Assembly (NCBI GenBank): GCA_021786105.1 | Contig: JAJYNW010000026.1 | Location: forward strand, 3,481-67,480 | Origin: a bacterium | Lineage (GTDB): Bacteria > Patescibacteriota > Microgenomatia > Daviesbacterales > UBA10151 | Length of the DNA: 64,000 bases | Direction of reading: 5' to 3' | Shown here: positions 33,912-62,010 of the stretch, piece by piece | Numbering within the stretch: the stretch's first letter is position 1 | Layout: each line of letters starts with the position of its first letter | Translations under genes and position numbers: made by a program | The notes under the pieces: model-generated | What the model was told of the DNA's origin: nothing | Databases searched by the model: none | The model's input: only the letters and a program-made list of their open reading frames with translations

Positions 33912-33963
33912 AGGCGCTTCGCGCCAAGCACTGCATAAAGACAGGCCAATCTAAAAAGTTAGA

Positions 33964-35276: not shown

Positions 35277-35279
35277 AGA

Positions 35280-35681: not shown

Positions 35682-35733
35682 CTTAAATGGTGAAACAAAT
35701 TATTCCCTTAAGAAATACTTAAGGGAGAAGGGG

Positions 35734-35916
35734 CTACTTTACCTCCCCCAATTCTTTTTCTGCCTCTTGAACGGCTTTCATCTCCTTTTCTAATTCTTCC
35801 TTATATCCTTGAAGGGATTTTTTTTGCTCTTCTTTTGAAAGGAATCGCGATCCGCCCCAACAAGAACAGTTGCACCCGTACATTCTATTTTTTATCATCA
35901 TAGGCATATCCATCAT
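35734..35916 (-). CDS. DUF5320-like small Cys-cluster / coiled-coil protein
   Basis: GCNCSCWGG followed by KEE-rich coiled coil; overlaps the PadR stop by 4 nt. Confidence 0.5.
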   Translation of the reverse strand: MMDMPMMIKNRMYGCNCSCWGGSRFLSKEEQKKSLQGYKEELEKEMKAVQEAEKELGEVK

Positions 35917-36308: not shown

Positions 36309-36318
36309 ATATGTAAAT

Positions 36319-36347
36319 ATCATATATGATGCTGTAGTTTTTGTCAA
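36319..36347 (-). promoter_or_regulatory. Sigma70-like promoter TTGACA-17-TATGAT for the PadR operon
   Basis: Read on minus strand: tgtcaa 36342-36347, atcata 36319-36324; the self-palindromic CATATATG appears twice at the transcript start. Confidence 0.4.
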
Positions 36348-36516
36348 CGGAAAATGAGGAACAAGATTACACCAATACCAATAATTAAAATCACACTTAT
36401 AACCCAAGCAAAATAATTAGTTTCGCTTCTGCGTTCTTCGATAGCACTGTAACTAAATGGCAGTTTTTCTTCTTTCTTGAAAAACTTTCTCATCTTTAAA
36501 CTATTTTAGCAAAAAC

Positions 36517-38250
36517 CTACAAAGGTGGGTAATTGGCATCTAAATACTGCGAAAGATAATAATTAAATCCCGTCATTGTTAAATTTTTTGCTTTTTCGTT
36601 GTACATATTTTTGATTGACTGATTAAAGCCATGCCAATTGCTTACTCCTTGAGCAAACACTGTGCGCCATGACTGTTGATGATAAGTCTTTGGATTATAA
36701 GGATAAAAAGGTGGTGAGACTTGGCGTCCCCACCATTGCTCCTGAAAAGTGGCAACGTTGCCAAGTTTGCCTCTTACTTTCAAAGCTAGGAAGTCATACA
36801 TTCCATGAGGCCTTGTCCACGGAGGGATTGGATTTTCTATTTCATAGATTAGGCTTTTTGTTATTAACCCAGCTGTTAATACAGTGTATTGAAGTGATTT
36901 TGTATCGCTCAACGATTTTATAAGGGCATACTTGAGGCTTCTTGTTATAGCGTCCGGTGTAACTTTGACGCTGTATTTCAAGGGCTTAGTTTTGGCAGCA
37001 GGCGTTATCTTAATCGCGTATTTAAGTAATTTAGTGCTGATTATATTAACTATCACGGCGTACCTGAGAAGTTTTGTTTTTGTCGATGGAATAGTTTTTA
37101 CAGCATATTGCAAAGATTTATTTTTTGCGGTAGGTGTTGTTTTAACTGCATATTTAAGATTTTTTTGAATATCTGTTGGCGTTGTTACAACTGGTTTATA
37201 GTCAACAATTACCCATACATCCTCAATAGTCATTAGCACTGACCCAGAAGTGGTTTGTTTTCCGCCTACTTCCATGCTATTTAAGAGGGCAAGAGTTAAT
37301 GCTGAATTTATATGGCTGTAGTAATAATCATCAGATGTTGTAAGTATGACTGAATTTTCGGTTAAAACAGAGTTATAAATAAAATTCATGGCATAAGTTG
37401 CAGCTGTACCGGTGCCTCGTTTAGCAACATAATAAATCCCTGCGGCATTGATAGTGTCGTTTGCGCCAATGGTCTGATTTCCATGACCGGTTTGAGTTGT
37501 ATTAAAAGCGGAAATTAGTTTAGTTTGTCTGCTTGGGATACCGGAATTAACAGAAGTGGCTTTGTTGGTAGTGCTAAAAGGTGTATCTGCCCAATAAGGG
37601 TCTGTTCCAACTTTAGTCCACGCGTTATATGTTGGCGTTCCTATTTTTGGCTGTCTGGCAATAACTCGCCCAGCTCCACAATAAGCGCTGTCATCTTCTG
37701 ATATGTCATCAAAGTCAATTTGTTGCGCTGCGGTCCTAAAACCATAACCTGCACCTGTTATAGCGGCCGCAGCCATTGTCAGAGAAGTAAAAGTCAATGT
37801 TTCAATAACTGTGTCATTTGCATCTGTAAATCTTACCTCGATTGTGCCATTACTAGCTGTTCCACAAATTATCTTTACCTCAACCCGAAACCAGCCATTA
37901 AGAGGTATAGAATTGGTAGATGCTCCTAAGAGTGTACCCGCAGAGCTTCCATTTCTTATTTTAATTTTACCTGTTGAAGATAATTGAAGCGTGACTATTC
38001 CTGTGTTGCCGTTTATTGTCTGCCAGAAGACATTATCTGCGCTGGGATTAGCAAGAATATAGGCATAGAACCTATAAAACATTGTGGCTTTGGAATAAAT
38101 GATAAAATCAAAGAAAGCATTAGTTGAAGTGCACCTATAAGCATATCCGCCGGTTCTTACATTGGCGCTCTGAACGCTACAACCACCACCCGGAGTTGCT
38201 GTTTCGCTTATGCTGCCTGTTTCCGCACCACCTAACCAAATACTTGCCAT
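36517..38250 (-). CDS. Large protein with concanavalin/LamG-like N-terminal region and about 8 tandem 13-aa repeats (LKYAVKTTPxAKTK); possible receptor-binding/fibre-like protein
   Basis: GWFRVEVKI...GTIEVRFTD jellyroll-like pattern; repeats visible in the translation. Confidence 0.5.
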   Translation of the reverse strand: MASIWLGGAETGSISETATPGGGCSVQSANVRTGGYAYRCTSTNAFFDFIIYSKATMFYRFYAYILANPSADNVFWQTINGNTGIVTLQLSSTGKIKIRNGSSAGTLLGASTNSIPLNGWFRVEVKIICGTASNGTIEVRFTDANDTVIETLTFTSLTMAAAAITGAGYGFRTAAQQIDFDDISEDDSAYCGAGRVIARQPKIGTPTYNAWTKVGTDPYWADTPFSTTNKATSVNSGIPSRQTKLISAFNTTQTGHGNQTIGANDTINAAGIYYVAKRGTGTAATYAMNFIYNSVLTENSVILTTSDDYYYSHINSALTLALLNSMEVGGKQTTSGSVLMTIEDVWVIVDYKPVVTTPTDIQKNLKYAVKTTPTAKNKSLQYAVKTIPSTKTKLLRYAVIVNIISTKLLKYAIKITPAAKTKPLKYSVKVTPDAITRSLKYALIKSLSDTKSLQYTVLTAGLITKSLIYEIENPIPPWTRPHGMYDFLALKVRGKLGNVATFQEQWWGRQVSPPFYPYNPKTYHQQSWRTVFAQGVSNWHGFNQSIKNMYNEKAKNLTMTGFNYYLSQYLDANYPPL

Positions 38251-49521: not shown

Positions 49522-51429
49522 ATGGAGATAGAAAATGGATTTACAAAAGTAACTAATCTTTTTAAGAACTGTAAAGTTAGTTTAACTGTTCTTTCAGGAA
49601 TAGCTTTAGTTTTTGGTCTTTTCTTAAGTTGGTTTAAAATTGCGCCTCAGCTCTCGCCCTTTTTGTATCTACTATCTTTGGCAAGCGGAGGATTTTATGT
49701 ATATAGAGAGGCGTTTGAAGGTTTCAAAAACAAAGCTTTCTTCAATATTAATCTTTTAGTAACAATAGCATCAATTGGAGCTGTTTTTATTAACCAGTGG
49801 GCAGAAGCAGCCTCAGTTGTTTTCTTCTTTTCACTGGCTGAAATGTTTGAGGAATTCGGTATTAAGCGCTCACAGCAAGCCATAACCAATCTTATTAAGG
49901 AATCACCCCAAAAGGCGAATAAAAAAGAGGTTAATAATATCGTCTCTATCTCTATCGAGGAAGTAAATATTGGTGATATCGTGGTGGTTAAACCAGGAGA
50001 CAAAATCCCATTAGACGGAAAAGTTGTTAAGGGAAATTCTGCAGTTGATGAAGCGGCAATTACTGGGGAATCACTTCCAAAAGAAAAGCTTGTAGGTGAC
50101 TTAGTTTTTGCAGGAACCATGAATATGTCCGGCTACTTGGAGATTAAAATTACAAAAAGGTCGAAAGACAGCGTGTTATCAAAGGTGATTGCAACAATTG
50201 AGGAAGCGCAGGAGAAAAAAGCCCCATCGCAGGAGTTTATTGATAAATTTGCAGCTTATTACACACCTACAGTTGTCATTGGTGCTGTTCTTTTAACCAT
50301 AGTTCCGGTTTTGTTGGGAGGAACATTTACACAGTGGCTGTACCGCTCCTTAACCCTTCTTGTTATTGCCTGTCCTTGCGCGCTTGTTATTTCAACCCCT
50401 GTTTCTGTTGCCTCGGCTATTGGTAGAGCTTCGCAAAAGGGATCACTCATAAAGGGCGGAAAATTTTTAGAAGCAATAGGAAAAGTGAAGGCTATCGCCT
50501 TTGATAAAACAAGAACATTGACAGAAGGTAAACCTATCGTTTCTGACATTCTTACATTTAATGGCTTTTCTAAAGAAGAAGTCCTCGCAGATGCTTGCGG
50601 TATTAGTAAATTTGACACACATCCATTATCTTTTGCCATTAAAGTTAAGGCGGAAGAAGAAAGCATAAACCCTCATATTATGGAGAAGTTTAAGAATACC
50701 CCCGGAAAAGGCTCTAAGGCTAACTGTACTGTATGTGATGATTTAACACACTGTGTTGGTAATCTAAAACTCTTAAACAGTGAAGAAGTAAATACCAAAG
50801 AAGTAGAGCATGTAGTTGAAAATTTGGCCAAGGAAGGCAAGACCACGATTTTAGTAAGTGAGGGTAAAGTAATGATGGGTGTACTAGGCATAACTGACTC
50901 TATCCGTCCAGAAGCCATTGAGACGATTGGACAACTAAAACGGCTTGGTATTTCAAACTTTTCGATTATAAGCGGTGATAATGCTTATGCTGTTGATTAT
51001 GTTGCACAAAAGCTAGGAGTTAATAATACCTTTGCTCAACTTTTGCCTGGGCAGAAATTAGAAACAATCGAAAAACTTAAACAGGAGTATGGAACTGTAT
51101 CGATGGTAGGTGATGGCATCAACGATTCTCCATCCCTTGCCGCCTCTGATGTTGGAATTGCTCTTGGCTCTGCGGGGTCGGACGTTGCCATTGAAACCGC
51201 TGATATTGCCCTTATGGGTGATGATTTAAGAAGGATTCCCTATCTTATTAAGCTGGGAAGACAAACAACTCAAGTAATCAAACAAAATATCTATGCTTCC
51301 CTTGGGATTAAGGCCATCTTTTTAACATTGGGAGTATTTGGGTTAACTCATCTAGGATGGGCAATAGCCGCAGATTCAGGGGTAGCACTCTTGGTAACGC
51401 TAAATGGATTAAGGCTTTTTAGAGCTTAA
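49522..51429 (+). CDS. P1B-type heavy-metal ATPase, CPC motif, no HMA domain; atypical DKTRT phosphorylation motif
   Basis: ACPCALVISTP, MVGDGINDSPSL, but AFDKTRTLTEG (codon aga where gga is expected). Confidence 0.8.
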   Translation: MEIENGFTKVTNLFKNCKVSLTVLSGIALVFGLFLSWFKIAPQLSPFLYLLSLASGGFYVYREAFEGFKNKAFFNINLLVTIASIGAVFINQWAEAASVVFFFSLAEMFEEFGIKRSQQAITNLIKESPQKANKKEVNNIVSISIEEVNIGDIVVVKPGDKIPLDGKVVKGNSAVDEAAITGESLPKEKLVGDLVFAGTMNMSGYLEIKITKRSKDSVLSKVIATIEEAQEKKAPSQEFIDKFAAYYTPTVVIGAVLLTIVPVLLGGTFTQWLYRSLTLLVIACPCALVISTPVSVASAIGRASQKGSLIKGGKFLEAIGKVKAIAFDKTRTLTEGKPIVSDILTFNGFSKEEVLADACGISKFDTHPLSFAIKVKAEEESINPHIMEKFKNTPGKGSKANCTVCDDLTHCVGNLKLLNSEEVNTKEVEHVVENLAKEGKTTILVSEGKVMMGVLGITDSIRPEAIETIGQLKRLGISNFSIISGDNAYAVDYVAQKLGVNNTFAQLLPGQKLETIEKLKQEYGTVSMVGDGINDSPSLAASDVGIALGSAGSDVAIETADIALMGDDLRRIPYLIKLGRQTTQVIKQNIYASLGIKAIFLTLGVFGLTHLGWAIAADSGVALLVTLNGLRLFRA

Positions 51430-51437
51430 TATGATCT

Positions 51438-51677
51438 TTACCTGCTAATCGTTGGTAATAAAACGTTTTCTGCTGGCTTTACGGCTTTTGTAGGCCTCTT
51501 TATAATCTTACCGGCAGAAACTAGATTATCTTTAGGACTTTTCTTTATTTCTTCGGCTTGCGCTTCTGTTACCTCAATAAAACGGCTTTTATTTTCGTCA
51601 GCTATCACAGCGTCAAATTCTGCTTTGACAACAAATTGAATTTCGCCGTTTTCATCAAATTGTATAAAGTGTTTCAT
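51438..51677 (-). CDS. Hypothetical small acidic protein
   Basis: 79-aa ORF ending 4 nt before the next gene. Confidence 0.4.
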   Translation of the reverse strand: MKHFIQFDENGEIQFVVKAEFDAVIADENKSRFIEVTEAQAEEIKKSPKDNLVSAGKIIKRPTKAVKPAENVLLPTISR

Positions 51678-51680: not shown

Positions 51681-52856
51681 TTAGCTCCTCATAAATAAGG
51701 CGTATACATCAAGCGAGATGGCCGCGTTAGAATCGCCGTCATAAAGATAAACTGTGTCTCGGTTGATGGTAATTTTTGGTATTCTGGTTTGCTTCCAATA
51801 GCCATTGATCCGAAAAACAATATCTGCCGCAATCTCCGATATTATTTGAATAATCCGATTGCTATCGAGTTTAACAGTCATGGTATAGCCGTTTCTGCCA
51901 TCTGCGCCCGGACTTGAAATATCAAAGTACCTATTGGCGCTTGAGCCGTTGGCTCTTGCTCCGGCAATTCTTGCGGCTGTTGTGTTAGAACTTTCAATAT
52001 AAACTTCCACACTATCTGCACCGATAGGGATAAAAGAGGATAAATCTAAGTTTTGCCATGCAGAGTTTGTGGAATTTTGGGCGGAGGCGAGTGTTTCTGT
52101 AAAGTGCATACCAAGACCAGCCTGATCGAGTGTTGGAGTATTAAGATAAGCGCCCATGATAGAGATAAACTCATGGTCTGAAAAAACCGGAAAAGTTGCC
52201 GCAGAATAACCATTGGCATTTAAATTGCCGGTGAAATTAGCTCCTGCTTGGACTAAATAAAGATTAGTTCCCTTTACTAAGGCTCCAATTTTGAAAGCAT
52301 CAAAATAAAAATTATAACCGGTGGACGCCGCGTTTTTATCGCTTCTTAAAACTATTTTAATCGTATGGCTTCCTGCAGAAAGCCCTGTTTTTTCATAAAC
52401 CAAAAAGCGGGTTAAAAGCAATGCGGAGTAAAGATCAACTGTTGAATCAAGTACGTTGTCAATATAAATATCAATCTTGCCCATATACGGCCCTTTGGCC
52501 GAGAAAATGCCTATTCTGGTACCTGTAAACGAATAGATTAAATAATCAGCAGGCGTTAGGGTGGTGTGATAAGAGCGGTTGTAAAACTGCATGGAAGAAG
52601 TGGAATAACTCCAACTTCCCACATAAGAAATAGCAGCGTCTAAATCATCAACAATTACTCTTAGTTTATCGGCATCAACAGAATTATTAGGATGGTCTAG
52701 CTCACTTTGTGTCCGGTGAGATTCTAAAACCTCGCCTGTTTCAGAATGGGCGGACGGGTCTTGGTCGTGAGCCAGAATTTTATTATCTATCTCCTGTCCT
52801 ATGGTTGTTGTATCTGTGGCGCTTTTTGCCAAAGCTCCCCAGCATATTGCAGGCAT
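51681..52856 (-). CDS. Large hypothetical protein with CBM/jellyroll-like region; possible receptor-binding/structural protein
   Basis: GPYMGKIDIYIDN...GSHTIKIVLRSDKN...YNFYFDAF beta-sandwich-like pattern. Confidence 0.45.
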   Translation of the reverse strand: MPAICWGALAKSATDTTTIGQEIDNKILAHDQDPSAHSETGEVLESHRTQSELDHPNNSVDADKLRVIVDDLDAAISYVGSWSYSTSSMQFYNRSYHTTLTPADYLIYSFTGTRIGIFSAKGPYMGKIDIYIDNVLDSTVDLYSALLLTRFLVYEKTGLSAGSHTIKIVLRSDKNAASTGYNFYFDAFKIGALVKGTNLYLVQAGANFTGNLNANGYSAATFPVFSDHEFISIMGAYLNTPTLDQAGLGMHFTETLASAQNSTNSAWQNLDLSSFIPIGADSVEVYIESSNTTAARIAGARANGSSANRYFDISSPGADGRNGYTMTVKLDSNRIIQIISEIAADIVFRINGYWKQTRIPKITINRDTVYLYDGDSNAAISLDVYALFMRS

Positions 52857-53010: not shown

Positions 53011-53805
53011 TTACAATGCCGTACCCACTGGATACACACTTTCAACTAAAGCTCCGGCCGGAACCAAAACCTGCTCCCACGAAAGATTAACTTGGTCGCA
53101 GTCCGGATCGGTATTATTAAGAACGCCGTTATAAGTAACCCACACATTATCAAACCAAAGATCGCCTGAAACATCGTTTAACTCCAAGGAAAGCTCCCAA
53201 TTAGCAGGAACACCCAAAGGAAGCGGAACTGATAAACTTTGCGTTGCCCATCCACTTGCAAGAGGAATTGAAATAACATTTTCATCTGTAATATTTTGCC
53301 CGCCATAATACCTGTTTGTTCGAAGGATTAGTTTTGCGTAAGGATTGCCGCCAGCAGAAGTTAAGTTTGATTTTCTGGAAAGTTGAAAGGTTAAAGGAAA
53401 AGTTGGTTTTTGATTTTTCGTTTGCCGGATTATAAGCGCAGTTGCACTCCCAGCTAAATTGATATGTCCTACCAAATACTGATGAAATAAAGATGGTGTT
53501 GCAAAACCACCAAGCAGATTTTTAATTCGATATGCTTGATCCTGAACAAAAAGGTTATAACCATTCATTCCCGGGACATTTCCGGCGTCAAGCCAGGACT
53601 GTCTCTGTGGAGCGCTAAATTCCGACCAGCTTTTGGAAACTGTAAATAAATAAGAAATCTCACGAAGACTGTAATAGCGGGAACGAGTCATAAAACGGGG
53701 ATTCTTGCCAATAGAACAGAAGAACGAAAAATCGTACATCTTCAAGGTCTTGTTATAATAAATCTCAAGACCGGCTGGTATAGTAATTCCCATTATTCTT
53801 GGCAT
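53011..53805 (-). CDS. Hypothetical protein ('MPR' family; N-terminus paralogous to 33964..34305)
   Basis: MPRIMG... and GMNGYNLFVQDQAY shared with the paralog. Confidence 0.5.
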   Translation of the reverse strand: MPRIMGITIPAGLEIYYNKTLKMYDFSFFCSIGKNPRFMTRSRYYSLREISYLFTVSKSWSEFSAPQRQSWLDAGNVPGMNGYNLFVQDQAYRIKNLLGGFATPSLFHQYLVGHINLAGSATALIIRQTKNQKPTFPLTFQLSRKSNLTSAGGNPYAKLILRTNRYYGGQNITDENVISIPLASGWATQSLSVPLPLGVPANWELSLELNDVSGDLWFDNVWVTYNGVLNNTDPDCDQVNLSWEQVLVPAGALVESVYPVGTAL

Positions 53806-53815
53806 AGTATTTCCT

Positions 53816-54004
53816 TTACCCTACTGGCGGCGTACTTTTGACGCCAAAGTAAAAAGCCACAACTGCCAGAAGTACAGAGCTGACAACTCCATCGTGTCCT
53901 AATCCGATTAAAACAAACGAGCCGATAACCACAATCATTGCCAAAATATCAGTTGGTTTCATTCTATCCAGAAAATTATAAAATTCTTTCATATTCTGTT
54001 CCAT
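53816..54004 (-). CDS. Small membrane protein (holin-like size, 1–2 TM)
   Basis: 62 aa, ILAMIVVIGSFVLIGL / VLLAVVAFYFGV helices; overlaps the PLD gene by 16 nt. Confidence 0.4.
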   Translation of the reverse strand: MEQNMKEFYNFLDRMKPTDILAMIVVIGSFVLIGLGHDGVVSSVLLAVVAFYFGVKSTPPVG

Positions 54005-54498
54005 AAAGTTTCGAAGTATCTAGTGAACTCTACTGCTACTTCTCTTGAAACTATTTTTATCGAAGCCTCATCATTAACTGTTACTGCACGCCTTGACATG
54101 TTATGCGATCCTAAAACTGTAATTTCTTGATCTATAATCCAAAGTTTGGCATGAGTAATAGGGGATGATGGCCCAAACTTTGCTAAAGCTCCGGCTTCTT
54201 GTAAATTTAAGATAGTGTTTTTGTTGACCGAATTTAGTGGATGTCTTGGATGTTCTTTGTTTAACAGAACTCGAACAGCAACTTTGCGCCTTGCGGCTTG
54301 CAAGACTTCATAGGAAAGTTGTTGAATACTTGAATCGTGGTCGTGATGATACCATTTCCACTCAAACTGAATAATATCTATACTCGCCTTGGCTTGCCGA
54401 ACACAATCTGTGATCGTTCCAATGAAAGCTCTCCCCGGCAAAGGGGTAACTATAGCATTGATATTCTCAACCATTATTTTTGTTTGTAAGTCTTGCAT
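53989..54498 (-). CDS. Phospholipase D-family (single HKD) Nuc-like nuclease
   Basis: HAKLWIIDQEITVLGSHNMS = HxK(x4)D(x6)GSxN motif in a 169-aa protein. Confidence 0.75.
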   Translation of the reverse strand: MQDLQTKIMVENINAIVTPLPGRAFIGTITDCVRQAKASIDIIQFEWKWYHHDHDSSIQQLSYEVLQAARRKVAVRVLLNKEHPRHPLNSVNKNTILNLQEAGALAKFGPSSPITHAKLWIIDQEITVLGSHNMSRRAVTVNDEASIKIVSREVAVEFTRYFETLWNRI

Positions 54499-54504
54499 AC
54501 TTAA

Positions 54505-56140
54505 ATTTTTACGCTTCCAAACCTAATCGCAACTCCCAAGCGATGTACTACTAACGAAAGTTTGTCTGCGACACCATCGCTCGTGCCTCGCCTTATCGCT
54601 CGCCCTGCTTCGCAGGTCTCGCTTTGGCTTCGGCACTCGCTACCTTATGGGAAACTCCAACCTTTGTACTTTTCCCAAACCTTGGGTCGCTATCGCGCAA
54701 CCCAAACCGCCAACCTTAAACCCAATTGCGATTCGAAACTCCATCGCCCCCGACAATGCGCGCCGCCCGCCTACGGCGAACATATTTATAAGAAAAACTT
54801 GTAAGGAAAGGCGGCGCTAGGCGGGGGCTTGGGATTACCAAACATAACTCGCACCATTGCCTCTCTCGCCAAGCAAAGCTTGGCTCGTTCGGCTCCACAA
54901 CTGCCCTTTGCTCGCAGTGCCTGGCCTCGCTTCGGGCAGCAGAAAAGGGTCGCTCGGTTCCCCCCGCCGCTTCTTCCCCCTAAAACCCCCTTCTTAGGCA
55001 ACCCCCCTTAATCAAATGTATTGCCATATTAGGGGGAAGAACGCTCTTGGGGGGATTCTCGCTTAAAAAAGCAGGCAATAATCTATAGTTGCTTTTTTTA
55101 CCCTTTCTCTGACGCTACGCAGCGGGAACCCTGTACATCCCGCTGCTTCGCTTATTCGGCGACTCGTCGGAGCCTCAATTTCTCCAACTCGTCGCCTCCA
55201 ATTCCCATCGTTTACTGTTCATGTTGCTCTTGCAGGCGCGCTCGCTCCATCTCTTGCGGTCTTCGCTCGCTTGCCGTACCTGCTTTTTTATCCCTTTCTG
55301 AACGCCGCTTTTTAAAAAGAGTTATCTTTTTGTATAAATCAAAACTTCTCCCGAAGTTTTTCAAGCGGTATTAAGCGGCGTTGAAGTGGAATCCGCCAAT
55401 AGCGGATATGGTGCGAGTAAAACCTATCATCGCCATATTCGGCGGCTGTGACCCCCGCTTATCGCTCACTCGCTTTTATTATATTTTTTAAGGTGCTCGT
55501 TCGCTGGGCGAGAGGGCGCCCTAGGGGGCGCCTCGCCCATGTCATTGCTTTCTAATAACGCTGTACAGTCTCTACCTCGCCGCCCGAAGTAGCGTTTTCT
55601 GAACCCAATCTCATCGGCGGGACGGCTACCTTTTAGGGTGGTTTAGTATCGCCTGCCTACGCGGGGGTGTGCCTTTTCCCCTCTCCTCCGCGTCGCTTCG
55701 CTCCTTGTCGGTGTCCCCCCTTCTGCGCAGGGGCGCTCCCTCTGGTCGCTTACCTGCTTGCGGGGGGAGCCCCCCTCGCCGTCGTATGGCTTGTGGAAAC
55801 TCAACCGCTGTACCCGTGCGCCGAACCGCAATCTAAGCCTGTGGGCGCTCGCGCTTATCTTTTAATACTAAGGTCAACTTCGCGCTCGCTTGGGTTATCG
55901 GGGGCGCGGCGCCAAACCTCATATAAGTCGTGAAGTTTTGTGTTGGCGCGCCCCCTCTTTTTGGCTCGTGCGCTTCGCTCGGGGGGCAGGCAACAGCCGC
56001 CGAAAAGAAAAACAAAAGCGTCTGTTTTTCCCTGCTTTCGAGCTAGCGCTTAGCTTTCGTTAGGTTTTCAAAGTGCTTGTTCCCATTGGCTTCCGATGTT
56101 GCGCGGGACAAACTTTTGTCTGTTATCAAGGGCATACTGC
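54505..56140. ncRNA. Candidate large structured non-coding RNA region (GC-rich, ORF-poor, hairpin/tetraloop-dense); class unknown, strand uncertain (tetraloops favour +)
   Basis: Abrupt rise in GC relative to the AT-rich flanks; only short overlapping ORFs in six frames; nested GC stems (GCCCCCG/CGGGGGC enclosing GCGCCGCC/GGCGGCGC), UUCG and UACG tetraloop hairpins, GGGGGG-AG-CCCCCC. Confidence 0.35.
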
Positions 56141-56499
56141 CCGCGCTGAAAATTCTTATCGTCGCCGATTATAAAAATACTAATCATAAATAATCATCAA
56201 ATAAATCAATCATTTCTATTTTTTATTTAACCTAACATTTGGTTTAACGTTAAGTTTTTTTATTTTCTATCCCGGAGGGTAGATTTTTTGCAAACGGTCC
56301 CCCTAACCCCATTAACGCCGAAATGAGGCTAGGAGACCATCTGCGAGGAAAGTTTTATCTTTCCTATCCCGTCTGGGCTAGTTCCTCGCTGAACGGCTGG
56401 TGAGACTTAAAGAGTTTTTTTAGGACCCCCGGAGGGAATTGCACCACTCTCTTTTGGTCGCTCCCACCATGCAAACCCCAAGCGACCTGCCAGAAGTGT

Positions 56500-56928
56500 C
56501 TATGTTTTCTTCTTGGCGCTCTTATCAATTTCTTCCATGTCCTCGTCTGAAATTTCAGGATTACCTTTATTCCATACCGGATTATCGCCGTCTATTTTTT
56601 GCACTTCATAGTGGACACTTTCGCCCTGCTTAACTTTAGTAATTTTGATGACTTCTCCCTCTTTTATTTCAGAAAAAAATAAAGCGATCCGAGATGCAGA
56701 GGATGTAAATAGTTTTTTCTCTCCGTCAACTTCGATAGAGTAGCGGGGATTTTCTTTGGTTGGGTCCCGAAAACTTGGCACCATTTTATAACCGCAATAG
56801 ATACCCACCGCGGATTCTCCGGGCTTTAACATTAAATAAGGACTATTCGCTTTGGCGTATTCTTCAAGCTCTCCCATAGTTTTATTAATTTTGGTGCCCG
56901 CCAGCTCCTGCCCTGAACCAGCGGGCAT
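56500..56928 (-). CDS. Hypothetical protein
   Basis: 142-aa ORF ending 5 nt before the M23 gene. Confidence 0.5.
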   Translation of the reverse strand: MPAGSGQELAGTKINKTMGELEEYAKANSPYLMLKPGESAVGIYCGYKMVPSFRDPTKENPRYSIEVDGEKKLFTSSASRIALFFSEIKEGEVIKITKVKQGESVHYEVQKIDGDNPVWNKGNPEISDEDMEEIDKSAKKKT

Positions 56929-56932
56929 ATCC

Positions 56933-57544
56933 TTACGGAATAACCAGAGTCTGATCCGGGTAAATTAAATCCGGATTTTGAATCTGGTCTTTGTTAGCGT
57001 TAAAAATGTCCTGCCAGCGATTACCATTTCCGTAAAACTTCTCGCTTATTTTCCAGAGAGAGTCTCCTGGTTGCACTCGGTAGTGGTGAACAAGTTTGGC
57101 TTCATCAATGGCACTTCCTGTTGGTTCTTTGAGATATTTCATCGGGTCTGTCCAACCGCGCATACCCTCCGGTGTATCACCTTGAACTTTCATCCCGAAG
57201 TGAAGATGGGGACCGGTCACAAATCCAGTGGCTCCACTTTCTCCGATCTGTTGACCTTTCGTAACATGATCTCCGATCTTCACAATAATTTTTGAAAGAT
57301 GCCAATACAAAGATTGACCCCAAGAGTGTTTGATAATTACTCCCATTCCGTCTGAATCTGCTACATCATCATCGAAAATAATTTCTCCATCATCTACTGC
57401 AAAAACTGGTGTACCTACAGAGGCTTTAAGATCAATTCCGTTATGCGGATAGCCAAACTGTTTCAAATACCAGTCAGTAGCCGCGCCGAATGGCCAAGTA
57501 ATAATCAATTCTCCTTCTAGTGGCTTTCCTATTTTTATTTCCAT
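56933..57544 (-). CDS. M23 peptidase with C-terminal LysM domain (cell-wall hydrolase / endolysin-like)
   Basis: HNGIDL and GPHLHFG M23 motifs; LysM YRVQPGDSLWKISEKFYG... Confidence 0.8.
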   Translation of the reverse strand: MEIKIGKPLEGELIITWPFGAATDWYLKQFGYPHNGIDLKASVGTPVFAVDDGEIIFDDDVADSDGMGVIIKHSWGQSLYWHLSKIIVKIGDHVTKGQQIGESGATGFVTGPHLHFGMKVQGDTPEGMRGWTDPMKYLKEPTGSAIDEAKLVHHYRVQPGDSLWKISEKFYGNGNRWQDIFNANKDQIQNPDLIYPDQTLVIP

Positions 57545-57683
57545 ACTATCCTTGCCATTTATCGCCGTAAAAGTGCTGCATTACTGCACAGGCCAATAAA
57601 TAAACGACTTCCTGAATATCCCGCAGTTCCTCTTCTGACGAATTCGGATAAAACTTTTTAATCGCTTCTATCGGCAACATAGC

Positions 57684-57932
57684 TTATTTGCCTTTCTCTG
57701 CTGCACTGATGTACCAGTCTTGAGCAGATATACCCAAAGCCTCACCGACTTTTTTAACATTTGATGGACGAGTGGGTTTTCCTTGTAGTAATCTGTTGAC
57801 TGTTTGTGGTGCAACTTCTGCTTCTAGTGCCAACCCCATTCTGGAAAGACCTTTTTGAAGACGCGCCTTGTCAAAAAGGCTGAAGTTTATTTTAAGCTCG
57901 TTATTGTTTAACTTATTTACATTATCATTCAT
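57684..57932 (-). CDS. XRE/Cro-type HTH regulator
   Basis: LSRMGLALEAEVAPQTVNRLLQGK HTH_3 pattern; divergent from 58063..58524. Confidence 0.7.
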   Translation of the reverse strand: MNDNVNKLNNNELKINFSLFDKARLQKGLSRMGLALEAEVAPQTVNRLLQGKPTRPSNVKKVGEALGISAQDWYISAAEKGK

Positions 57933-58062
57933 AAATGTTAGGAAGATTTAACAGAATAGAAACAGTTTATAAATTTATTCACTTTCAGTCAATAAACTTT
58001 CTTTTAATTATTGTTGACAATTTTTAACTAATTTGCTACGGTATTATAAGAAGGTTATTTTT

Positions 58063-58524
58063 ATGAGCAAGAAGATAAAAGAAATGAAAAAATCTCCACT
58101 AAGAAGTCCAGAAGAATTTAGAGATTTGGCAGACTACCTTTACTATTTGCGAACACACCGAAAGTTAAGTATGCGGGATGTCGAGCTTGCGGCTAAAGAG
58201 CTTCTCCGAAGAAAAATTATAAAAAAAGAAGGTCTTATTTCCTATGCGTATATCTCCAATATAGAAAGCCGCAGGGTAAGCAATCCCTCTCCGATTATTT
58301 TAAGAACCCTAGCTCTTATCTTTGGTGTAGATCAAGAAATGATGTTTGAAAAAGCTGGTTACCTTGATAAAAAAAGACCTAAAATAGAAGATGACGTGGC
58401 TTTTACTTTAATGTTAAAAGAAGTTCCCAGAATGACAGATGATGAGAAACAATCGCTTTTAGACTATATAGATTTTGTTAAGTCTAGGCGGAGAAAATAT
58501 GAGAAAGGCCCTAAAAAGGGCTAG
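58063..58524 (+). CDS. XRE-family HTH regulator (CI-like)
   Basis: LSMRDVELAA...ISYAYISNIESRR...PSPIILRTLALIFGV HTH_3. Confidence 0.7.
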   Translation: MSKKIKEMKKSPLRSPEEFRDLADYLYYLRTHRKLSMRDVELAAKELLRRKIIKKEGLISYAYISNIESRRVSNPSPIILRTLALIFGVDQEMMFEKAGYLDKKRPKIEDDVAFTLMLKEVPRMTDDEKQSLLDYIDFVKSRRRKYEKGPKKG

Positions 58525-59716: not shown

Positions 59717-61234
59717 ATGAGAGCTTTAATCTATGTTAGGGTTTCAACAGACGAACAGGCCGATAAAGGCTTATCGTTACCTGCCCAGCAGGAAGCCTGT
59801 TTAGAATACATAAAAATTAAGCATTGGACTATTGACCCTAAAAAAGACATCTTTGTTGACGCCGGAGAATCAGCACGAACCGCTAATCGCCCAGCCCTCC
59901 AAGAAATGCTATCCCGCTGTAAGAAAGATAAAGAAGTCAATGTAGTTTTGGTCCATAAACTCGACAGGTTAGCCCGCAATGTAGCCGACCACGCGGCTAT
60001 AAGGGGAATCCTGCGAAAATATGATATACAGCTTTGTTCTGTTGTTGAGCCTGTTGATGACAGCCCCACGGGAGCGCTTCTTGAAAATATTATGGCTTCC
60101 GTTGCAGAGTTCTATTCTGCTAATCTAGGACAGGAGGTAAAAAAAGGAATGAAGCAGGTACTTAAACAGGGGAGGTATCCGGGACGTGCGCCTGTCGGTT
60201 ATCTTAATAAGGATATATTTGAGTCGGACGGCACTGTTACCAAAACAATAATTATGGATGCGATCAAAGCCCCTGCAATCCAGCAGGCTTTCAGAGTATT
60301 TGCCACTAACCAATGGACTCAAGAACAGTTATGCGATGAGCTTAATAAAAACGGCTTTAAGACGTTTTTTAATAATGGAGTAAGACCATGGAAATTGCAC
60401 GGTATCCTCACAAACAAATTTTATATGGGTATTGTTGTGTGGGGCGGAGAAGAAGTGCAGGGAACCCATGAACCCTTGGTGTCTCCCGAACTATTTTACC
60501 GAGTGCAAGACGTCTTGAGAATAAGGACTAAGAATACAACTCGCCAAAGAGCGGCAATGTTTTCTCTAAGGAGAATTCTTTATTGCCCCAAGTGTGGCAA
60601 TAGATATGTTGCAGAAACCCACAAAGGCGGGCGGTTCAGCTATTATCGCTGTAGCTCCGCTTCCCGCTATGGTATGCACTGTGACCAAAAAATGGCGGCG
60701 GAAAAAGATTTATTAGCACAGATTCTTGAAATCTTCAAACAAGTGGAGCTCCCCGAAGAACTTGTTACCCTTGCAAAAATGAACGTTAAAAAACTAGAGG
60801 AAGATCGAGTAAGCGGAGTAACAAATGAACGCAGGCACTTGCGGGAAAGAATAAGTAAACTTGAAGAAAAACAGCAGAAACTTCTTGATGACCGGCTGGA
60901 AGGTCTTATTGATAAAGAACTATGCTACCAAAAGCTAGCCCTAATCAAAAGAGATATTGACCTTGCCAACGTAAGGCTTAATGAAATCCAACAGGAGAAC
61001 GACGCAAGCTTTGTCGCTCTTAATAAAACAATTGATGTTTTAGGAAATATCTACGAGATATACAAAATGTCCGACCCGCCAAGGCGTACTCTTTATAACC
61101 AATCTTTCTTCGAAAAGATCATGGTTGACCAAAAACGAATTACCGAGATAAAATGGCGTGCACCGTTTAGCTCGTTATATCGGGATAAACGTGATTCTGG
61201 TTTACCCCCCTATGGAGCGGGAGAGGGGATTTGA
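59717..61234 (+). CDS. Large serine recombinase (site-specific integrase)
   Basis: ALIYVRVSTDEQ catalytic Ser, recombinase domain, CPKCGN...YYRC zinc ribbon, C-terminal coiled coil; 3' end overlaps tRNA-Gly. Confidence 0.85.
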   Translation: MRALIYVRVSTDEQADKGLSLPAQQEACLEYIKIKHWTIDPKKDIFVDAGESARTANRPALQEMLSRCKKDKEVNVVLVHKLDRLARNVADHAAIRGILRKYDIQLCSVVEPVDDSPTGALLENIMASVAEFYSANLGQEVKKGMKQVLKQGRYPGRAPVGYLNKDIFESDGTVTKTIIMDAIKAPAIQQAFRVFATNQWTQEQLCDELNKNGFKTFFNNGVRPWKLHGILTNKFYMGIVVWGGEEVQGTHEPLVSPELFYRVQDVLRIRTKNTTRQRAAMFSLRRILYCPKCGNRYVAETHKGGRFSYYRCSSASRYGMHCDQKMAAEKDLLAQILEIFKQVELPEELVTLAKMNVKKLEEDRVSGVTNERRHLRERISKLEEKQQKLLDDRLEGLIDKELCYQKLALIKRDIDLANVRLNEIQQENDASFVALNKTIDVLGNIYEIYKMSDPPRRTLYNQSFFEKIMVDQKRITEIKWRAPFSSLYRDKRDSGLPPYGAGEGI

Positions 61235-61287
61235 ACCCCCGACATCCTCGTTGGCAACGAGGCACTCTACCACTGAGTTACTCCCGC
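61213..61287 (-). tRNA. tRNA-Gly (anticodon GCC)
   Basis: Hand-folded: GCGGGAG acceptor, anticodon loop UUGCCAA, GGTTCAAATCC T-arm, CCA encoded. Confidence 0.75.
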
Positions 61288-61351
61288 AAACATATAAACA
61301 CTCAACTCTAAATTGTATCTCAAACCGCTATTTCTGCTATGCAGAAACGAG

Positions 61352-61425
61352 GCACTCTTCCTGGGCGTCATTTAGACTCCCGTCCGCACTTCGTGCATGA
61401 CCCACTGAGTTACTCCCGCAAAAAG
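61352..61425 (-). repeat. Duplicate of the 5' 34 nt of tRNA-Gly interrupted by a roughly 43-nt hairpin-forming insertion
   Basis: ccactgagttactcccgcaaa and aacgaggcactct segments repeat those in the intact tRNA, separated by an insert containing GUCAU...GCAC-GAA-GUGC...AUGAC. Confidence 0.5.
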
Positions 61426-61488
61426 TGCCGCAGACTTGAGTTGCACAAGTATAAAACGCTCTTCAGGCGCTCGCCGTGACTACCTTGG

Positions 61489-62010
61489 CTACTGCGGCAA
61501 TTTACAATAGTTCTCTGTTTGAGAATGACAATTAGGACACAAGAAACAAAGATTTTCAGGTCGATTATCTAATGGATTACTATTAATATGCTCTACTTCT
61601 AATCGTATCAGCTTATCTCTCCACTTTGATAATTGACATTCACTACATTTATATTCTCTGCCTATCTCCAGAAGTGCCCTTCTTAATAATTTTCCTCTTG
61701 CCCTAATGCCACTATTTTGAACGACCAGTATTTGTTGGGGTGTTTTTTTAGCCGATCCACCAACATGATTTTTACCTTGATTCCAGGCCTGCCCTAAAAA
61801 GTGCGAGTTATCTATTTTATAATATTTAATTCTACCAATTAAATATGTTCTGAGAGCACCCGATGTCAAAGAAGCCCCTAATGTCCGCATCACTCCTAGC
61901 ATTGAGACATTATTTTTCACTGCTTTCTCTAAAATCTCTCGGGTATATTTCAGCTTTGACACCTTACTATTATAACATTTGTTAGGTGCCTTGCCCATAA
62001 TGAAAATCAT
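61489..62010 (-). CDS. HNH endonuclease
   Basis: EVEHINSNPLDNRPENLCFLCPNCH HNH/CxxC motif. Confidence 0.7.
   Translation of the reverse strand: MIFIMGKAPNKCYNSKVSKLKYTREILEKAVKNNVSMLGVMRTLGASLTSGALRTYLIGRIKYYKIDNSHFLGQAWNQGKNHVGGSAKKTPQQILVVQNSGIRARGKLLRRALLEIGREYKCSECQLSKWRDKLIRLEVEHINSNPLDNRPENLCFLCPNCHSQTENYCKLPQ

What the first reader, a model, noticed from the sequence alone, without database searches (positions are those of the whole stretch)
53816..56928. Single-HKD PLD nuclease plus tiny membrane protein flanking the candidate RNA: possible uncharacterised nuclease–RNA module
A 169-aa single-HKD phospholipase D-family (Nuc-like) nuclease overlaps by 16 nt with a 62-aa 1–2 TM protein. 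It lies directly next to the GC-rich structured region, within an element that also carries DUF3800 and immunity regulators. Nuc-type PLD nucleases occur in defence and anti-defence contexts and in plasmid/phage biology. The tight juxtaposition with a large putative RNA is unusual and could represent an RNA-associated nuclease system, or alternatively a lysis cassette (small TM protein as holin, with the M23-LysM lysin nearby).
Basis: inference. Interest (0 to 1): 0.55.

Follow-up and report, generated by a model that had tools for sequence, protein, structure and literature searches.

The report
Nuclease gene beside novel giant structured RNA
A small DNA/RNA-cutting enzyme gene and a tiny membrane-protein gene sit beside a previously undescribed, roughly 2,000-base folded non-coding element inside a small mobile element of an ultra-small (CPR) bacterium. 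The trio always travels together, but nothing shows that the enzyme actually uses the RNA.

Summary
A 169-aa single-HKD PLD nuclease (Pfam 1e-21) is translationally coupled to a small 2-TM protein. It lies directly downstream of a 2.0-kb ORF-free, GC-rich segment.

That segment is a real conserved structure:
- 56 base pairs show compensatory changes, against 9-16 in controls.
- Its nucleotide identity to relatives is higher (87-96%) than that of the flanking genes (72-85%).
- It has no codon periodicity and no Rfam match.

The locus is the middle of the rightward operon of a ~10-kb serine-recombinase element next to tRNA-Gly in a Patescibacteria genome. Relatives include 15.9-kb circular episomes with all genes on one strand and no Rep, polymerase or P-loop ATPase.

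The order M23-LysM, small protein, GC-rich structured region, (0-2 genes), PLD, small TM protein, jelly-roll protein, spike-like proteins is kept down to 41% PLD identity.

No evidence supports an RNA-guided or RNA-bound nuclease. The PLD is a bare catalytic domain, adjacency is not strict, the most distant PLD homologues lack the region, and PADLOC finds no system. A lysis cassette is not supported either, although the TM protein could be a holin.

Whether the structure acts as RNA or as single-stranded DNA is unresolved. GNA-triloop hairpins are strongly enriched, which is a DNA-hairpin hallmark.

The parts
56933..57544 (-). M23 peptidase with a C-terminal LysM domain (203 aa). It is the first large gene of the rightward operon and is a conserved upstream neighbour in the whole family.
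   Evidence: Pfam Peptidase_M23 3.6e-26 and LysM 1.7e-13. PHROG matches to endopeptidase, endolysin and tape-measure domains. Synteny.
56500..56928 (-). Small conserved protein directly upstream of the structured region. The ORF is 142 aa, but most homologues are 125 aa, starting at the Met at 56877. Its C-terminal tail is rich in charged residues, both acidic and basic (sequence). Function unknown.
   Evidence: 36% identical to the 131-aa protein in the same position in the 16-kb episome (E 1e-19). The family has 183 clusters. No Pfam or PDB match. The AF2 model is low-confidence (pLDDT 52) with a b1-b2-b3-helix-b4-b5 order reminiscent of an OB fold. The fold search was not significant.
56262..56499 (-). 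5' structured domain, starting right after the stop codon of the upstream gene. It includes a 23-bp hairpin (about 56279-56333) with seven G.U positions. It is found only in close relatives.
   Evidence: A2 columns 1-250, helices 2-10. 88-95% nucleotide identity to relatives. Covariance model R2 finds it in no distant locus.
56166..56261 (-). AT-rich variable spacer ending in a conserved TATAAT (56168-56173). It may be an internal promoter or an unwinding element. The whole spacer end is deleted in two relatives (L024, L025).
   Evidence: Alignment A2 columns 250-390. No scan-level promoter was called here.
54499..56165 (-). Main body of the conserved non-coding structured element, about 1.67 kb here and up to about 2.0 kb in relatives. 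It contains an invariant core, a closed multi-helix domain, a window-specific replaced segment (about 54702-54840) and a conserved 3' hairpin cluster (about 54525-54644) that ends 30 nt before the PLD start codon.
   Evidence: 547 predicted pairs, 96.5% of cells paired. 56 pairs have changes on both sides, against 33.5+-2.9 in shuffles and 9-16 in slid controls. No Rfam hit even at E<=10. No conserved ORF. No 3-nt periodicity.
55429..55818 (-). Most conserved core, including the invariant hairpin GGGCGAGGCGCCCCCUAGGGCGCCCUCUCGCCC at 55505-55537.
   Evidence: 90-95% nucleotide identity to four relatives whose PLD genes are 77-85% identical. nhmmer and blastn find it upstream of PLD in distant loci L009, L049/53/57, L055, L056 and L094.
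54949..55065 (-). Long C-rich/G-rich three-helix hairpin module (model R1). It carries a conserved unpaired AAGGGGGUU, a UAUGG/CCUAAG pair resembling an 11-nt tetraloop receptor, and conserved U.G pairs.
   Evidence: The covariance model finds it in L082 (51.5 bits, E 6e-13), L042 and L039. 16 of 34 pairs have changes on both sides, against 4.7+-1.4 in shuffles and 3-7 in slid controls; 98.1% of cells are paired. The antisense strand scores 25.8 against 149 bits.
53989..54498 (-). Single-HKD phospholipase-D-family nuclease, 169 aa, with no signal peptide evident by eye and no extra domain.
   Evidence: Pfam PLDc_2 1e-21. The profile against the PDB hits poxvirus nicking-joining enzyme 6e-14, MitoPLD/Zucchini 2e-12, NucT 1.5e-11, Nuc 6e-11 and the PLD3/4 exonucleases. 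Catalytic residues are invariant.
53816..54004 (-). Small two-TM membrane protein, translationally coupled to PLD. The ORF is 62 aa; the probable real start is at 53992, giving 58 aa and an ATGA overlap.
   Evidence: Hydropathy. Relatives called as 58 aa with a 4-nt overlap. No Pfam, PHROG or PADLOC family. The 81-aa TM protein in the same position in distant relatives is not detectably homologous.
53011..53805 (-). The best-conserved protein of the family (264 aa): N-terminal helices plus a C-terminal jelly-roll / CBM-like beta-sandwich.
   Evidence: AF2 pLDDT 80. Foldseek hits phage minor tail and tailspike accessory domains, CBM16 and, weakly, the CPMV capsid. 50% identical to the episome's 264-aa protein.
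51681..52856 (-). Spike/fibre-like protein (391 aa). Only its N-terminal 55 aa are shared with the beta-helix proteins that occupy this position in distant relatives.
   Evidence: tblastn. PHROG matches to unknown and tail-protein families. Beta_helix/NosD Pfam hits on the counterparts in L004.

Best explanation
What it is (shown). The PLD gene and the small membrane-protein gene are real, coupled genes in the middle of the single rightward (lytic-type) operon of a ~10-kb element. The element is serine-recombinase-integrated and phage-like, and lies beside tRNA-Gly in a Patescibacteria genome. It belongs to an undescribed family that also exists as ~16-kb circular episomes.

The PLD (inferred from family). 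It is a bare single-HKD catalytic domain of the Nuc / NucT / Zucchini / poxvirus nicking-joining clade. It must therefore dimerise to build one active site, and it most likely cuts nucleic acid through a phosphohistidine intermediate. What it cuts is unknown. Candidates are host DNA or the element's own DNA or transcript.

The 2.0-kb segment (shown). The stretch between the upstream small-protein gene and PLD is a conserved, non-coding, heavily base-paired element read from the gene-sense strand. Its conserved domains are kept better than the neighbouring genes.

How the segment works (inferred). It is most likely RNA made by read-through of the operon, because no terminator separates it from the genes on either side. 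It is modular: a conserved core and several hairpin domains that are gained, lost or replaced between lineages.

Relation between PLD and the segment. They are conserved neighbours in the core of this element family. The evidence supports shared inheritance, and possibly a shared nucleic-acid-handling block. It does not support an RNA-guided or RNA-bound nuclease.
For: - PLD identity and intact motif.
- Coupling of the small TM gene to PLD.
- Operon layout: all genes from the Cro-like HTH (57684-57932) to the 79-aa gene (51438-51677) are on the minus strand, opposite a divergent HTH+M78+DUF3800+recombinase block.
- Element family and hosts.
- 15,929-bp circle rebuilt from two independent assemblies.
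- Structure: 56 double-sided covarying pairs against 33.5+-2.9 in shuffles (0/500) and 9-16 in slid controls. In the R1 module, 16 of 34 pairs covary across four lineages.
- Constraint: conserved domains are 87-96% identical in nucleotides, against 72-85% for flanking genes, in four relatives. Variable columns show no mod-3 periodicity (229/251/231).
- Non-coding: no conserved ORF in either genetic code.
- Sense strand: unpaired bases are 45% A and 10% C. In helices predicted on both strands, G.U occurs in 29 pairs and A.C in 13. Consensus energy is -979 against -921 kcal/mol. R1 scores 149 bits on the sense strand and 25.8 on the antisense.
- Conserved neighbourhood.
- Sequence homology of modules in loci with 41-51% PLD identity, colinear where two modules are found.
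- No terminator-like site on the minus strand in 53500-58200.
Against: - No expression data. Transcription of the region, its ends and its abundance are all inferred.
- RNA is not proven over single-stranded DNA. Folding z-scores are similar for sense RNA (-6.2), sense DNA (-8.0) and antisense RNA (-6.1).
- The dominant enriched hairpin cap is the C(GNA)G triloop: 91 on the sense strand, 23 on the antisense, 40.9+-5.8 in shuffles. GNRA tetraloops run 38/10/25.2. From my own knowledge, C(GNA)G is the hallmark of unusually stable DNA mini-hairpins, whereas large RNAs usually favour GNRA.
- The covariation comes mostly from relatives 81-94% identical, so many changes are shared by descent.
- The CM-derived alignment is fitted to its own model (caveat).
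- The episomes have no recognisable replication or packaging proteins. The only large non-coding region is therefore also the obvious place for an origin, which the 'plain RNA' reading does not explain.
Confidence: 0.55

Rival explanations
1. Replication block of a protein-minimal replicon. The structured region would be, or would contain, the origin. It could be an RNA-primed origin of the ColE1 type, in which a G-rich folded transcript forms a persistent hybrid. Or it could be a set of single-strand DNA hairpin origins and packaging signals like the intergenic region of filamentous phages. PLD would be the nicking-joining or primer-processing enzyme, and the upstream small protein a single-strand-binding factor.
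For: - The 15.9-kb episome has no Rep, polymerase or helicase family hit and no Walker-A protein.
- The structured region is its only large non-coding stretch.
- All 20 genes are on one strand, and GC skew is +0.19 on that strand in 30 of 31 windows with no sign switch.
- The best solved relative of the PLD profile is the poxvirus nicking-joining enzyme (6e-14).
- PLD enzymes act through a covalent phosphohistidine intermediate (established for Nuc and BfiI; my own knowledge). That chemistry is what a nick-and-rejoin initiator needs.
- C(GNA)G mini-hairpins are enriched 2.2-fold over shuffles and 4-fold over the antisense strand.
- The region contains an AT-rich stretch.
Against: - Known origins are 0.2-1 kb, not 2-3.5 kb.
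- No PLD-family replication initiator is known.
- The upstream protein is not shown to be an OB fold (pLDDT 52; Foldseek E>0.29).
- Iteron-like repeats are seen only in some lineages (L010, L005). A GGTTTGG motif is enriched in the window (6 against 0.8 expected) but not consistently elsewhere.
- Uniform skew can come from co-oriented transcription alone.
- Helices with many G.U pairs are poor DNA hairpins: 7 of 23 pairs in the 5' hairpin, and three conserved U.G pairs in R1.
Confidence: 0.17
2. The conserved structure works as single-stranded DNA rather than RNA. The element would pass through, or be packaged as, a single-stranded form of the sense strand, and the hairpins would act at that stage.
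For: - GNA triloops outnumber GNRA tetraloops 91 to 38 and are strongly strand-specific.
- DNA-parameter folding gives z -8.0.
- Genes are co-oriented and skew is uniform.
- No packaging ATPase or polymerase is present.
- The conserved 264-aa protein has a single jelly-roll.
Against: - 16 kb is large for known ssDNA phages.
- Beta-helix spikes, M23-LysM, a CI/Cro-like switch and a serine integrase are typical of dsDNA temperate elements.
- Helices rich in G.U pairs are better explained by RNA.
- Unpaired bases at 45% A and 10% C match the usual make-up of structured RNA.
- No HUH Rep family was detected.
Confidence: 0.2
3. RNA-dependent nuclease system. The large RNA would guide, scaffold, activate or neutralise the PLD nuclease, by analogy with omega/HEARO RNA and IscB, or with type III toxin-antitoxin RNA.
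For: - Same strand, immediate adjacency in the window (the conserved structure ends 30 nt before the PLD start), and neighbourhood kept down to 41% PLD identity.
- Relatives of the PLD include nucleases specific for single-stranded RNA or DNA, namely Zucchini and NucT.
Against: - The PLD is a bare 169-aa catalytic domain with no RNA-binding module.
- Intervening genes occur in several lineages.
- The most distant PLD homologues (27-36% identity) lack any GC island.
- The RNA is 5-10 times larger than known guide RNAs and turns over module by module.
- The window's region has no tandem repeats of the type III antitoxin kind.
- No PADLOC system was found.
Confidence: 0.05
4. Lysis cassette. The small TM protein would be the holin. 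PLD (acting as a lipid hydrolase or nuclease) and/or M23-LysM would be the lytic enzymes.
For: - The small TM protein has two TM segments and sits at a fixed position, but the window-type and episome-type versions are not detectably homologous. Holins typically evolve this way.
- M23-LysM matches endolysin PHROGs.
- The second-best solved relatives of the PLD are annotated as cardiolipin hydrolase.
Against: - M23-LysM is 2.9 kb upstream, separated by another gene and the structured region.
- M23 domains are equally common in virion-associated penetration proteins (tape-measure and minor-head PHROGs).
- The TM protein matches no holin family.
- The closest small single-HKD relatives of the PLD are nucleases (Nuc, NucT).
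Confidence: 0.1
5. Defence or anti-defence cargo. PLD would be a DrmC-like defence nuclease carried with DUF3800 and the ImmA/HTH pair, and the RNA would be unrelated.
For: - Weak DrmC hits: PADLOC 4.7e-8 at 31 bits; NCBIfam DISARM_DrmC_I 39 bits against a cut-off of 133.
- DUF3800 matches the candidate family PDC-M04A (8e-13).
Against: - No DrmA, DrmB or methyltransferase partner is present.
- The NCBIfam score is far below its cut-off.
- PLD sits in the conserved core between the structured region and the structural-type genes in both integrated and episomal forms, not in a variable cargo slot.
- DUF3800 is absent from the episomes and from L024/L025.
Confidence: 0.04

Closest known systems
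Nuc (plasmid pKM101) and NucT (Helicobacter): small single-HKD PLD-family nucleases
   Same: Similar size (155-170 aa), one HKD motif and the same fold family. The profile matches NucT at 1.5e-11 and Nuc at 6e-11. By implication it is a homodimer with one shared active site.
   Different: No signal peptide is evident by eye, whereas Nuc is periplasmic. Sequence identity is low and it falls far below the NCBIfam NucT cut-offs (24 against 225 bits). It is encoded in the core operon of a CPR mobile element beside a large structured region. Its activity is untested.
Poxvirus K4-type virion nicking-joining enzyme, the PLD3/PLD4 exonucleases, and MitoPLD/Zucchini
   Same: These are the best solved relatives by profile (6e-14, 2e-9 and 2e-12). 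All are nucleic-acid-cleaving PLD enzymes, and several prefer single strands.
   Different: K4 and PLD3/4 are two-domain proteins of about 420-490 aa. The window protein corresponds to a single half-domain. There is no evidence here for joining activity or for substrate preference.
GOLLD and ROOL: large ornate RNAs carried by phages and prophages (Rfam; cryo-EM in PMC12286853)
   Same: A large, intricately folded non-coding element in a phage-like element, with no known function. The neighbourhood is conserved rather than any obvious regulatory target.
   Different: There is no sequence or structure match to any Rfam family, even at E<=10. It is 2-3 times longer (1.7-2.2 kb against 0.6-0.8 kb). 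Content turns over quickly module by module. GNA triloops predominate over GNRA. It is not shown to be a discrete RNA.
HEARO/omega RNA with IscB (a structured RNA encoded beside the nuclease it guides)
   Same: A conserved structured non-coding region immediately next to a nuclease gene on the same strand.
   Different: A different nuclease fold with no RNA-binding domain. The RNA is many times larger. Adjacency is broken by inserted genes in some lineages. No guide-like variable segment was identified.
ColE1 RNA II origin and the structured intergenic region of filamentous (Ff) phages
   Same: A Rep-poor small replicon whose single large non-coding region is highly folded on the sense strand. 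The transcript would be G-rich, and all genes are co-oriented.
   Different: The size is 2-3.5 kb against 0.5-0.6 kb. No antisense regulator, RNase H site or HUH Rep was identified. The origin function is entirely inferred.
Class II (two-TM) phage holins
   Same: Size of about 58-62 aa, two TM helices, a position-conserved but sequence-diverse gene, and location in a phage-like operon.
   Different: No holin family match. It is coupled to a nuclease gene rather than an endolysin gene. The C-terminus is not strongly charged.

Membership tests
PLD superfamily, Nuc-like single-HKD nucleases | PLD fold with one HxK(x)4D(x)6GSxN motif in a protein of about 150-180 aa | tested here: met
   PLDc_2 1e-21 over residues 31-166. 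H116, K118, D123, G130, S131 and N133 are invariant in 28 homologues.
PLD superfamily, Nuc-like single-HKD nucleases | Closest characterised relatives are nucleases rather than lipid synthases or hydrolases | tested here: met
   Most of the strongest profile-to-PDB hits are nucleases: nicking-joining enzyme, NucT, Nuc and PLD3/4. MitoPLD/Zucchini is annotated as cardiolipin hydrolase but is known as a nuclease. Classical lipid phospholipases D also match, at weaker E-values of 3e-9 and above. Cardiolipin synthase models score about 27 bits against cut-offs of 281-290.
PLD superfamily, Nuc-like single-HKD nucleases | Homodimer forming one active site; nucleic-acid cleavage | not testable with these tools
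   No dimer prediction or assay was possible.
Known large structured RNA families (GOLLD, ROOL, OLE, HEARO, group I/II introns, RNase P, tmRNA, DUF3800 motifs) | Match to the family covariance model | tested here: not met
   Rfam 15 at gathering threshold over the whole window finds only tRNAs. Permissive filters at E<=10 on 54300-56700 give only two chance miRNA hits.
Structured functional RNA (generic) | Conserved base-pairing with compensatory changes beyond controls | tested here: met
   56 pairs against 33.5+-2.9 in shuffles and 9-16 in slid controls; 16 of 34 pairs, with 0/500 shuffles reaching that.
Structured functional RNA (generic) | Evidence that the folded molecule is RNA (transcript ends, RNA-specific motifs) | tested here: inconclusive
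   For RNA: A-rich and C-poor loops, an excess of G.U over A.C, and a possible 11-nt receptor in 9 of 14 sequences. Against: GNA triloops exceed GNRA, and DNA parameters fold it equally well. No expression data.
RNA-guided nuclease systems (IscB/TnpB-omega RNA type) | Nuclease with an RNA-binding domain, plus an adjacent RNA with a scaffold and a variable guide | tested here: not met
   The PLD has no domain beyond the catalytic one. No guide-like segment was found. Adjacency is not strict.
Type III toxin-antitoxin (ToxIN-like) | Tandem array of short RNA repeats upstream of an endoribonuclease toxin, separated by a terminator | tested here: not met
   No direct-repeat family lies within 54499-56499. 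No minus-strand terminator. PADLOC found nothing of this type.
DISARM (DrmC) | DrmC together with DrmA, DrmB and a methyltransferase, scoring above the model cut-off | tested here: not met
   39 bits against a cut-off of 133. No partner genes in the element.
Phage lysis cassette | Holin gene adjacent to an endolysin gene; holin family match | tested here: not met
   The TM gene is 2.9 kb from M23-LysM, with PLD, the structured region and another gene between them. No holin family hit.
Rolling-circle or Rep-dependent replicon | Recognisable initiator (HUH Rep, Rep_trans, RepA/iteron type) next to the origin | tested here: not met
   No Rep, polymerase or helicase Pfam family, and no Walker-A motif, in any of 37 element proteins.
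Tailed phage (Caudoviricetes) | Terminase ATPase, portal and HK97-fold capsid protein | tested here: not met
   None detected by Pfam or PHROGs, and there is no P-loop protein. The 264-aa and PLD proteins have no relatives in 50,697 GenBank phage records, apart from one 32% partial PLD hit. Only spike-like and CBM-like proteins are present.

The most novel reading that the evidence does not exclude
The 2-kb folded segment, the PLD enzyme of the nicking-joining type and the small upstream protein together form a new kind of protein-minimal replication system. It would be an RNA-primed or hairpin-origin replicon whose initiator or primer-processing nuclease belongs to the PLD family. It would serve a family of CPR episomes that carry no Rep, polymerase, helicase or ATPase of their own. 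A weaker version is also open: the segment is simply the largest ornate non-ribosomal RNA yet seen in a bacterial mobile element, and PLD trims it.
Probability: 0.12. Interest if true: 0.85.

Novelty: new variant of a known kind. Interest (0 to 1): 0.6.

Why it matters
The PLD nuclease and the TM protein are ordinary on their own. What matters is what they flank.

- The flanked element is 1.7-2.2 kb of conserved, covarying, non-coding structure with no Rfam family. Its conserved domains are kept better than the neighbouring genes.
- It takes up 13-20% of tiny mobile elements of Candidate Phyla Radiation bacteria.
- Those elements appear to lack every standard replication and packaging protein.

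If the structure is RNA, it would be among the largest non-ribosomal structured RNAs in bacteria or their mobile elements, and a candidate for the ornate-RNA class whose functions are still unknown. If it is an origin or priming element working with a PLD nickase, it would define a new replication strategy.

Either way, it gives a concrete and testable handle on how mobile elements of uncultured CPR bacteria propagate.

Tried and rejected
- Rfam at gathering threshold and at E<=10: no family.
- blastn of the region against 50,697 phage records: nothing.
- The invariant 23-nt core motif in IMG/VR: nothing. PLD in IMG/VR: one distant locus only.
- Coding explanation, rejected. The longest sense-strand frames are at most 109 codons. 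Antisense frames move and vanish between relatives. TGA recoding does not help. There is no codon periodicity.
- Strand test with a no-GU consensus: too few informative cells (10 G.U against 6 A.C). The shared-helix test gave 29 against 13 pairs.
- RNA against DNA energy parameters, and sense against antisense z-scores: not discriminating.
- GGTTTGG iteron idea: enriched in the window and in L005 but not consistently elsewhere.
- 5' domain model R2: no hit in any distant locus.
- L010's region: no nucleotide similarity to any other locus, despite the same composition and position.
- Upstream 125/142-aa protein as an SSB: the AF2 model is low-confidence, the Foldseek search was not significant, and no PDB or Pfam match emerged even with a 50-sequence profile.
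- 264-aa protein as a capsid protein: jelly-roll/CBM-like, with best matches to tail-associated domains and only weak capsid hits. Undecided.
- A second copy of the tRNA-Gly 3' half, sought as the far attachment site: none in the window.

Full report
**1. Observation**

The ORFs are as described: PLD at 53989-54498(-), 169 aa; a small ORF at 53816-54004(-), 62 aa, overlapping PLD by 16 nt; and a 142-aa ORF at 56500-56928(-).

Between 54499 and 56499 no ORF exceeds 88 aa. GC rises to 0.47-0.63 against 0.35-0.44 around it.

PLD matches Pfam PLDc_2 at 1e-21 and has a single HKD motif. H116, K118, D123, G130, S131 and N133 are invariant in 28 homologues.

The small protein has two hydrophobic segments. 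Relatives were called as 58 aa with a 4-nt overlap. The second ATG, at 53992, gives the same ATGA overlap, so the 16-nt overlap is probably an over-extension.

**2. What the element is**

PLD homologues are plentiful: 42 clusters and at least 193 confirmed metagenomic loci. They occur on contigs assigned to Patescibacteria and Daviesbacteria. Small contigs are binned inconsistently, as expected for episomes.

Gene order is conserved: M23-LysM, a 125-142-aa protein, a gene-poor stretch of 2.3-3.5 kb, sometimes one or two extra genes, PLD, a small TM protein, a 264-aa protein, then spike-like proteins that share only their N-terminal 55 aa.

Integrated forms add a serine recombinase and a divergent HTH/M78 module, with or without DUF3800.

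Episomal forms are about 14-16 kb. Two independent assemblies (L004, L005) overlap at both ends into a 15,929-bp circle. All 20 genes are on one strand, and GC skew is +0.19 on that strand in 30 of 31 windows.

None of 37 element proteins has a Walker-A motif. None matches a Rep, polymerase, helicase, terminase, portal or HK97 capsid family.

The 264-aa protein is predicted at pLDDT 80. It has a C-terminal jelly-roll most like CBM16 and phage tail accessory domains, with weak capsid hits.

GenBank phages contain no relative of the 264-aa protein or of the region. PLD has only one partial 32% hit there. The family is therefore undescribed, and its nature is open: virus, satellite or plasmid-like element.

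**3. The GC-rich region is a conserved structure**

Fourteen relatives, 81-94% identical, align over 2.4 kb.

The consensus fold has 547 pairs, and 96.5% of cells are paired. 56 pairs change on both sides, against 33.5+-2.9 in column shuffles (0/500) and 9-16 when partners are slid. That is 160 cells, against 13-26 in the slid controls.

Its conserved domains are 87-96% identical to four relatives, while the flanking genes are 72-85% identical. Variable columns show no codon periodicity. There is no conserved ORF in code 11 or with TGA read as sense.

nhmmer finds separate modules of the region, on the same strand and upstream of PLD, in lineages with only 41-51% PLD identity. Where two modules are found they are colinear.

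A covariance model of a 117-nt module (window 54949-55065) recovers it in three further loci from two further lineages (L082; L042 and L039). In that alignment 16 of 34 pairs covary and 98.1% of cells are paired.

Other lineages, such as L010, keep a region of the same composition and position with no detectable sequence similarity. In 44 of 54 loci of at least 3 kb, the only GC island lies just upstream of PLD. Several of these loci are duplicates of one another.

No Rfam family matches. Literature searches found no description of it.

**4. Strand and chemistry**

The sense (window minus) strand is favoured:
- Unpaired bases are 45% A and 10% C.
- GNRA loops appear only on this strand.
- In helices predicted on both strands, G.U occurs in 29 pairs and A.C in 13.
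- The consensus energy is better, -979 against -921 kcal/mol.
- The module model scores 149 bits on the sense strand and 25.8 on the antisense.
- A 23-bp hairpin in the 5' domain has seven G.U positions, and the R1 module has three conserved U.G pairs. Both suit RNA better than DNA.

RNA against single-stranded DNA is still not settled:
- Folding z-scores are alike.
- Across 19 GC islands the most enriched hairpin cap is the C(GNA)G triloop: 91 on the sense strand, 23 on the antisense, 40.9+-5.8 in shuffles. GNRA runs 38/10/25.2. From my own knowledge, d(GCGAAGC)-type GNA triloops are exceptionally stable DNA mini-hairpins found at phage origins, whereas large RNAs favour GNRA.

I rate RNA at about 0.6-0.65, ssDNA at about 0.2, and other or both for the remainder.

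**5. PLD, the TM protein and their relation to the region**

The PLD profile matches poxvirus nicking-joining enzyme (6e-14), MitoPLD/Zucchini (2e-12), NucT (1.5e-11), Nuc (6e-11) and PLD3/4. This places it in the nuclease clade.

DrmC and NucT models are hit far below their cut-offs, and no defence system is present.

The region's conserved structure ends 30 nt before the PLD start codon. No minus-strand terminator is found anywhere between the Cro-like gene and the structural-type genes. PLD is therefore probably translated from a transcript that contains the region.

Against a dedicated nuclease-RNA system:
- The PLD is a bare catalytic domain.
- Extra genes intervene in L004/5/30 and L067.
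- L011, L013 and L014 have PLD homologues without any GC island.
- All positive cases belong to one syntenic family.

The window-type TM protein (62 aa) and the episome-type one (81 aa, weak DUF4257) are not detectably homologous. This fits a holin-like role, but M23-LysM is not adjacent.

**6. Mechanism, with likelihoods**

- Shown: the genes, the conserved structure, the synteny, and the absence of standard replication and packaging genes.
- Inferred: the PLD dimerises and cleaves nucleic acid, and the region is transcribed with the operon.
- Most likely (0.55): PLD and the structured element are independent core components that are inherited together.
- Rivals: a replication block with PLD as nicking or processing enzyme (0.17); an RNA-dependent nuclease (0.05); a lysis cassette (0.10); defence cargo (0.04). 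The ssDNA-versus-RNA question cuts across all of these.

**7. Novelty**

The PLD is a new member of a known kind. The structured element is a new family resembling the phage-borne ornate RNAs (GOLLD, ROOL) in kind but not in sequence, size or loop usage. Its host element family is undescribed.

Noticed in passing
window 61346-61422 (-), next to tRNA-Gly 61213-61287 (-): There is a partial copy of the 5' half of tRNA-Gly(GCC). Its 21 nt at 61402-61422 are identical to 61270-61290. It is interrupted by a 41-nt insert in the D-loop and diverges exactly after the anticodon stem. The intact tRNA-Gly overlaps the recombinase stop codon. No second copy of the tRNA 3' half exists in the window, so the far attachment site was not found.
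   Followed up: partly
window 61425-61498 (-): ARAGORN calls a tRNA-Phe(GAA) here, but Rfam's tRNA model does not reach its threshold. The sequence looks atypical and may be a degenerate or tRNA-like element at the integration site.
   Followed up: no
window 31437-38250 (-): Genes that directly follow the 79-aa gene in related elements lie about 13 kb away here: a 91-aa-like ORF, methyltransferase 31670-32290, GT4 glycosyltransferase 32277-33911, and a 113-aa protein 33964-34305. A region similar to the C-terminal 110 aa of the 475-aa protein also lies inside ORF 36517-38250. Other genes sit between, including a P-type ATPase at 49522-51429. This suggests rearrangement, a cargo insertion, or a second related element.
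   Followed up: partly
L004 + L005 (also L030): A 15,929-bp circular relative was rebuilt from two independent assemblies. It has 20 co-oriented genes, uniform positive GC skew, three glycosyltransferases, a methyltransferase, two beta-helix proteins, an HNH and an Hjc-like 98-aa protein. It has no ATPase, Rep or polymerase.
   Followed up: partly
L010 7745-7890: Three copies of GTCGGGGGGYTTGGGGGGCGGAGCCCCCC, spaced about 55 nt apart, lie just upstream of the PLD start. They form an iteron- or mini-array-like arrangement not seen in the window. L005 8372-8460 has three copies of a different ~22-nt repeat (TTGCGGCTTCnGAGrTTTGG).
   Followed up: no
window 54949-55065 (-): Mirror-image purine tracts AAGAAGGGGG-UUUUA-GGGGGAAGAA occur together with the complementary UUCUUCCCCC. 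One position of the unpaired tract changes together with the corresponding base pair in five sequences. This hints at a triplex or at alternative helices. A UAUGG/CCUAAG pair resembling the 11-nt GAAA-tetraloop receptor is present in 9 of 14 sequences.
   Followed up: no
window 54523-54715 (-): Five GGTT(T)GG motifs are clustered in the last 220 nt before PLD. The whole region has 6, against 0.8 expected and none on the other strand. The motif is also frequent in L005 but not in most other relatives.
   Followed up: partly
L002 1-2632: A gene of more than 1,055 aa combining PLDc_2, SNF2 and helicase_C domains lies next to the recombinase of a related integrated element. It looks like a defence-type gene and is unrelated to the small PLD.
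   Followed up: no
window 56500-56928 (-) and relatives: The small protein upstream of the region belongs to a broad family (183 clusters at 50% identity) of 95-140-aa proteins with no Pfam or PDB relative. It was not tested whether members outside this element family also precede structured regions.
   Followed up: partly
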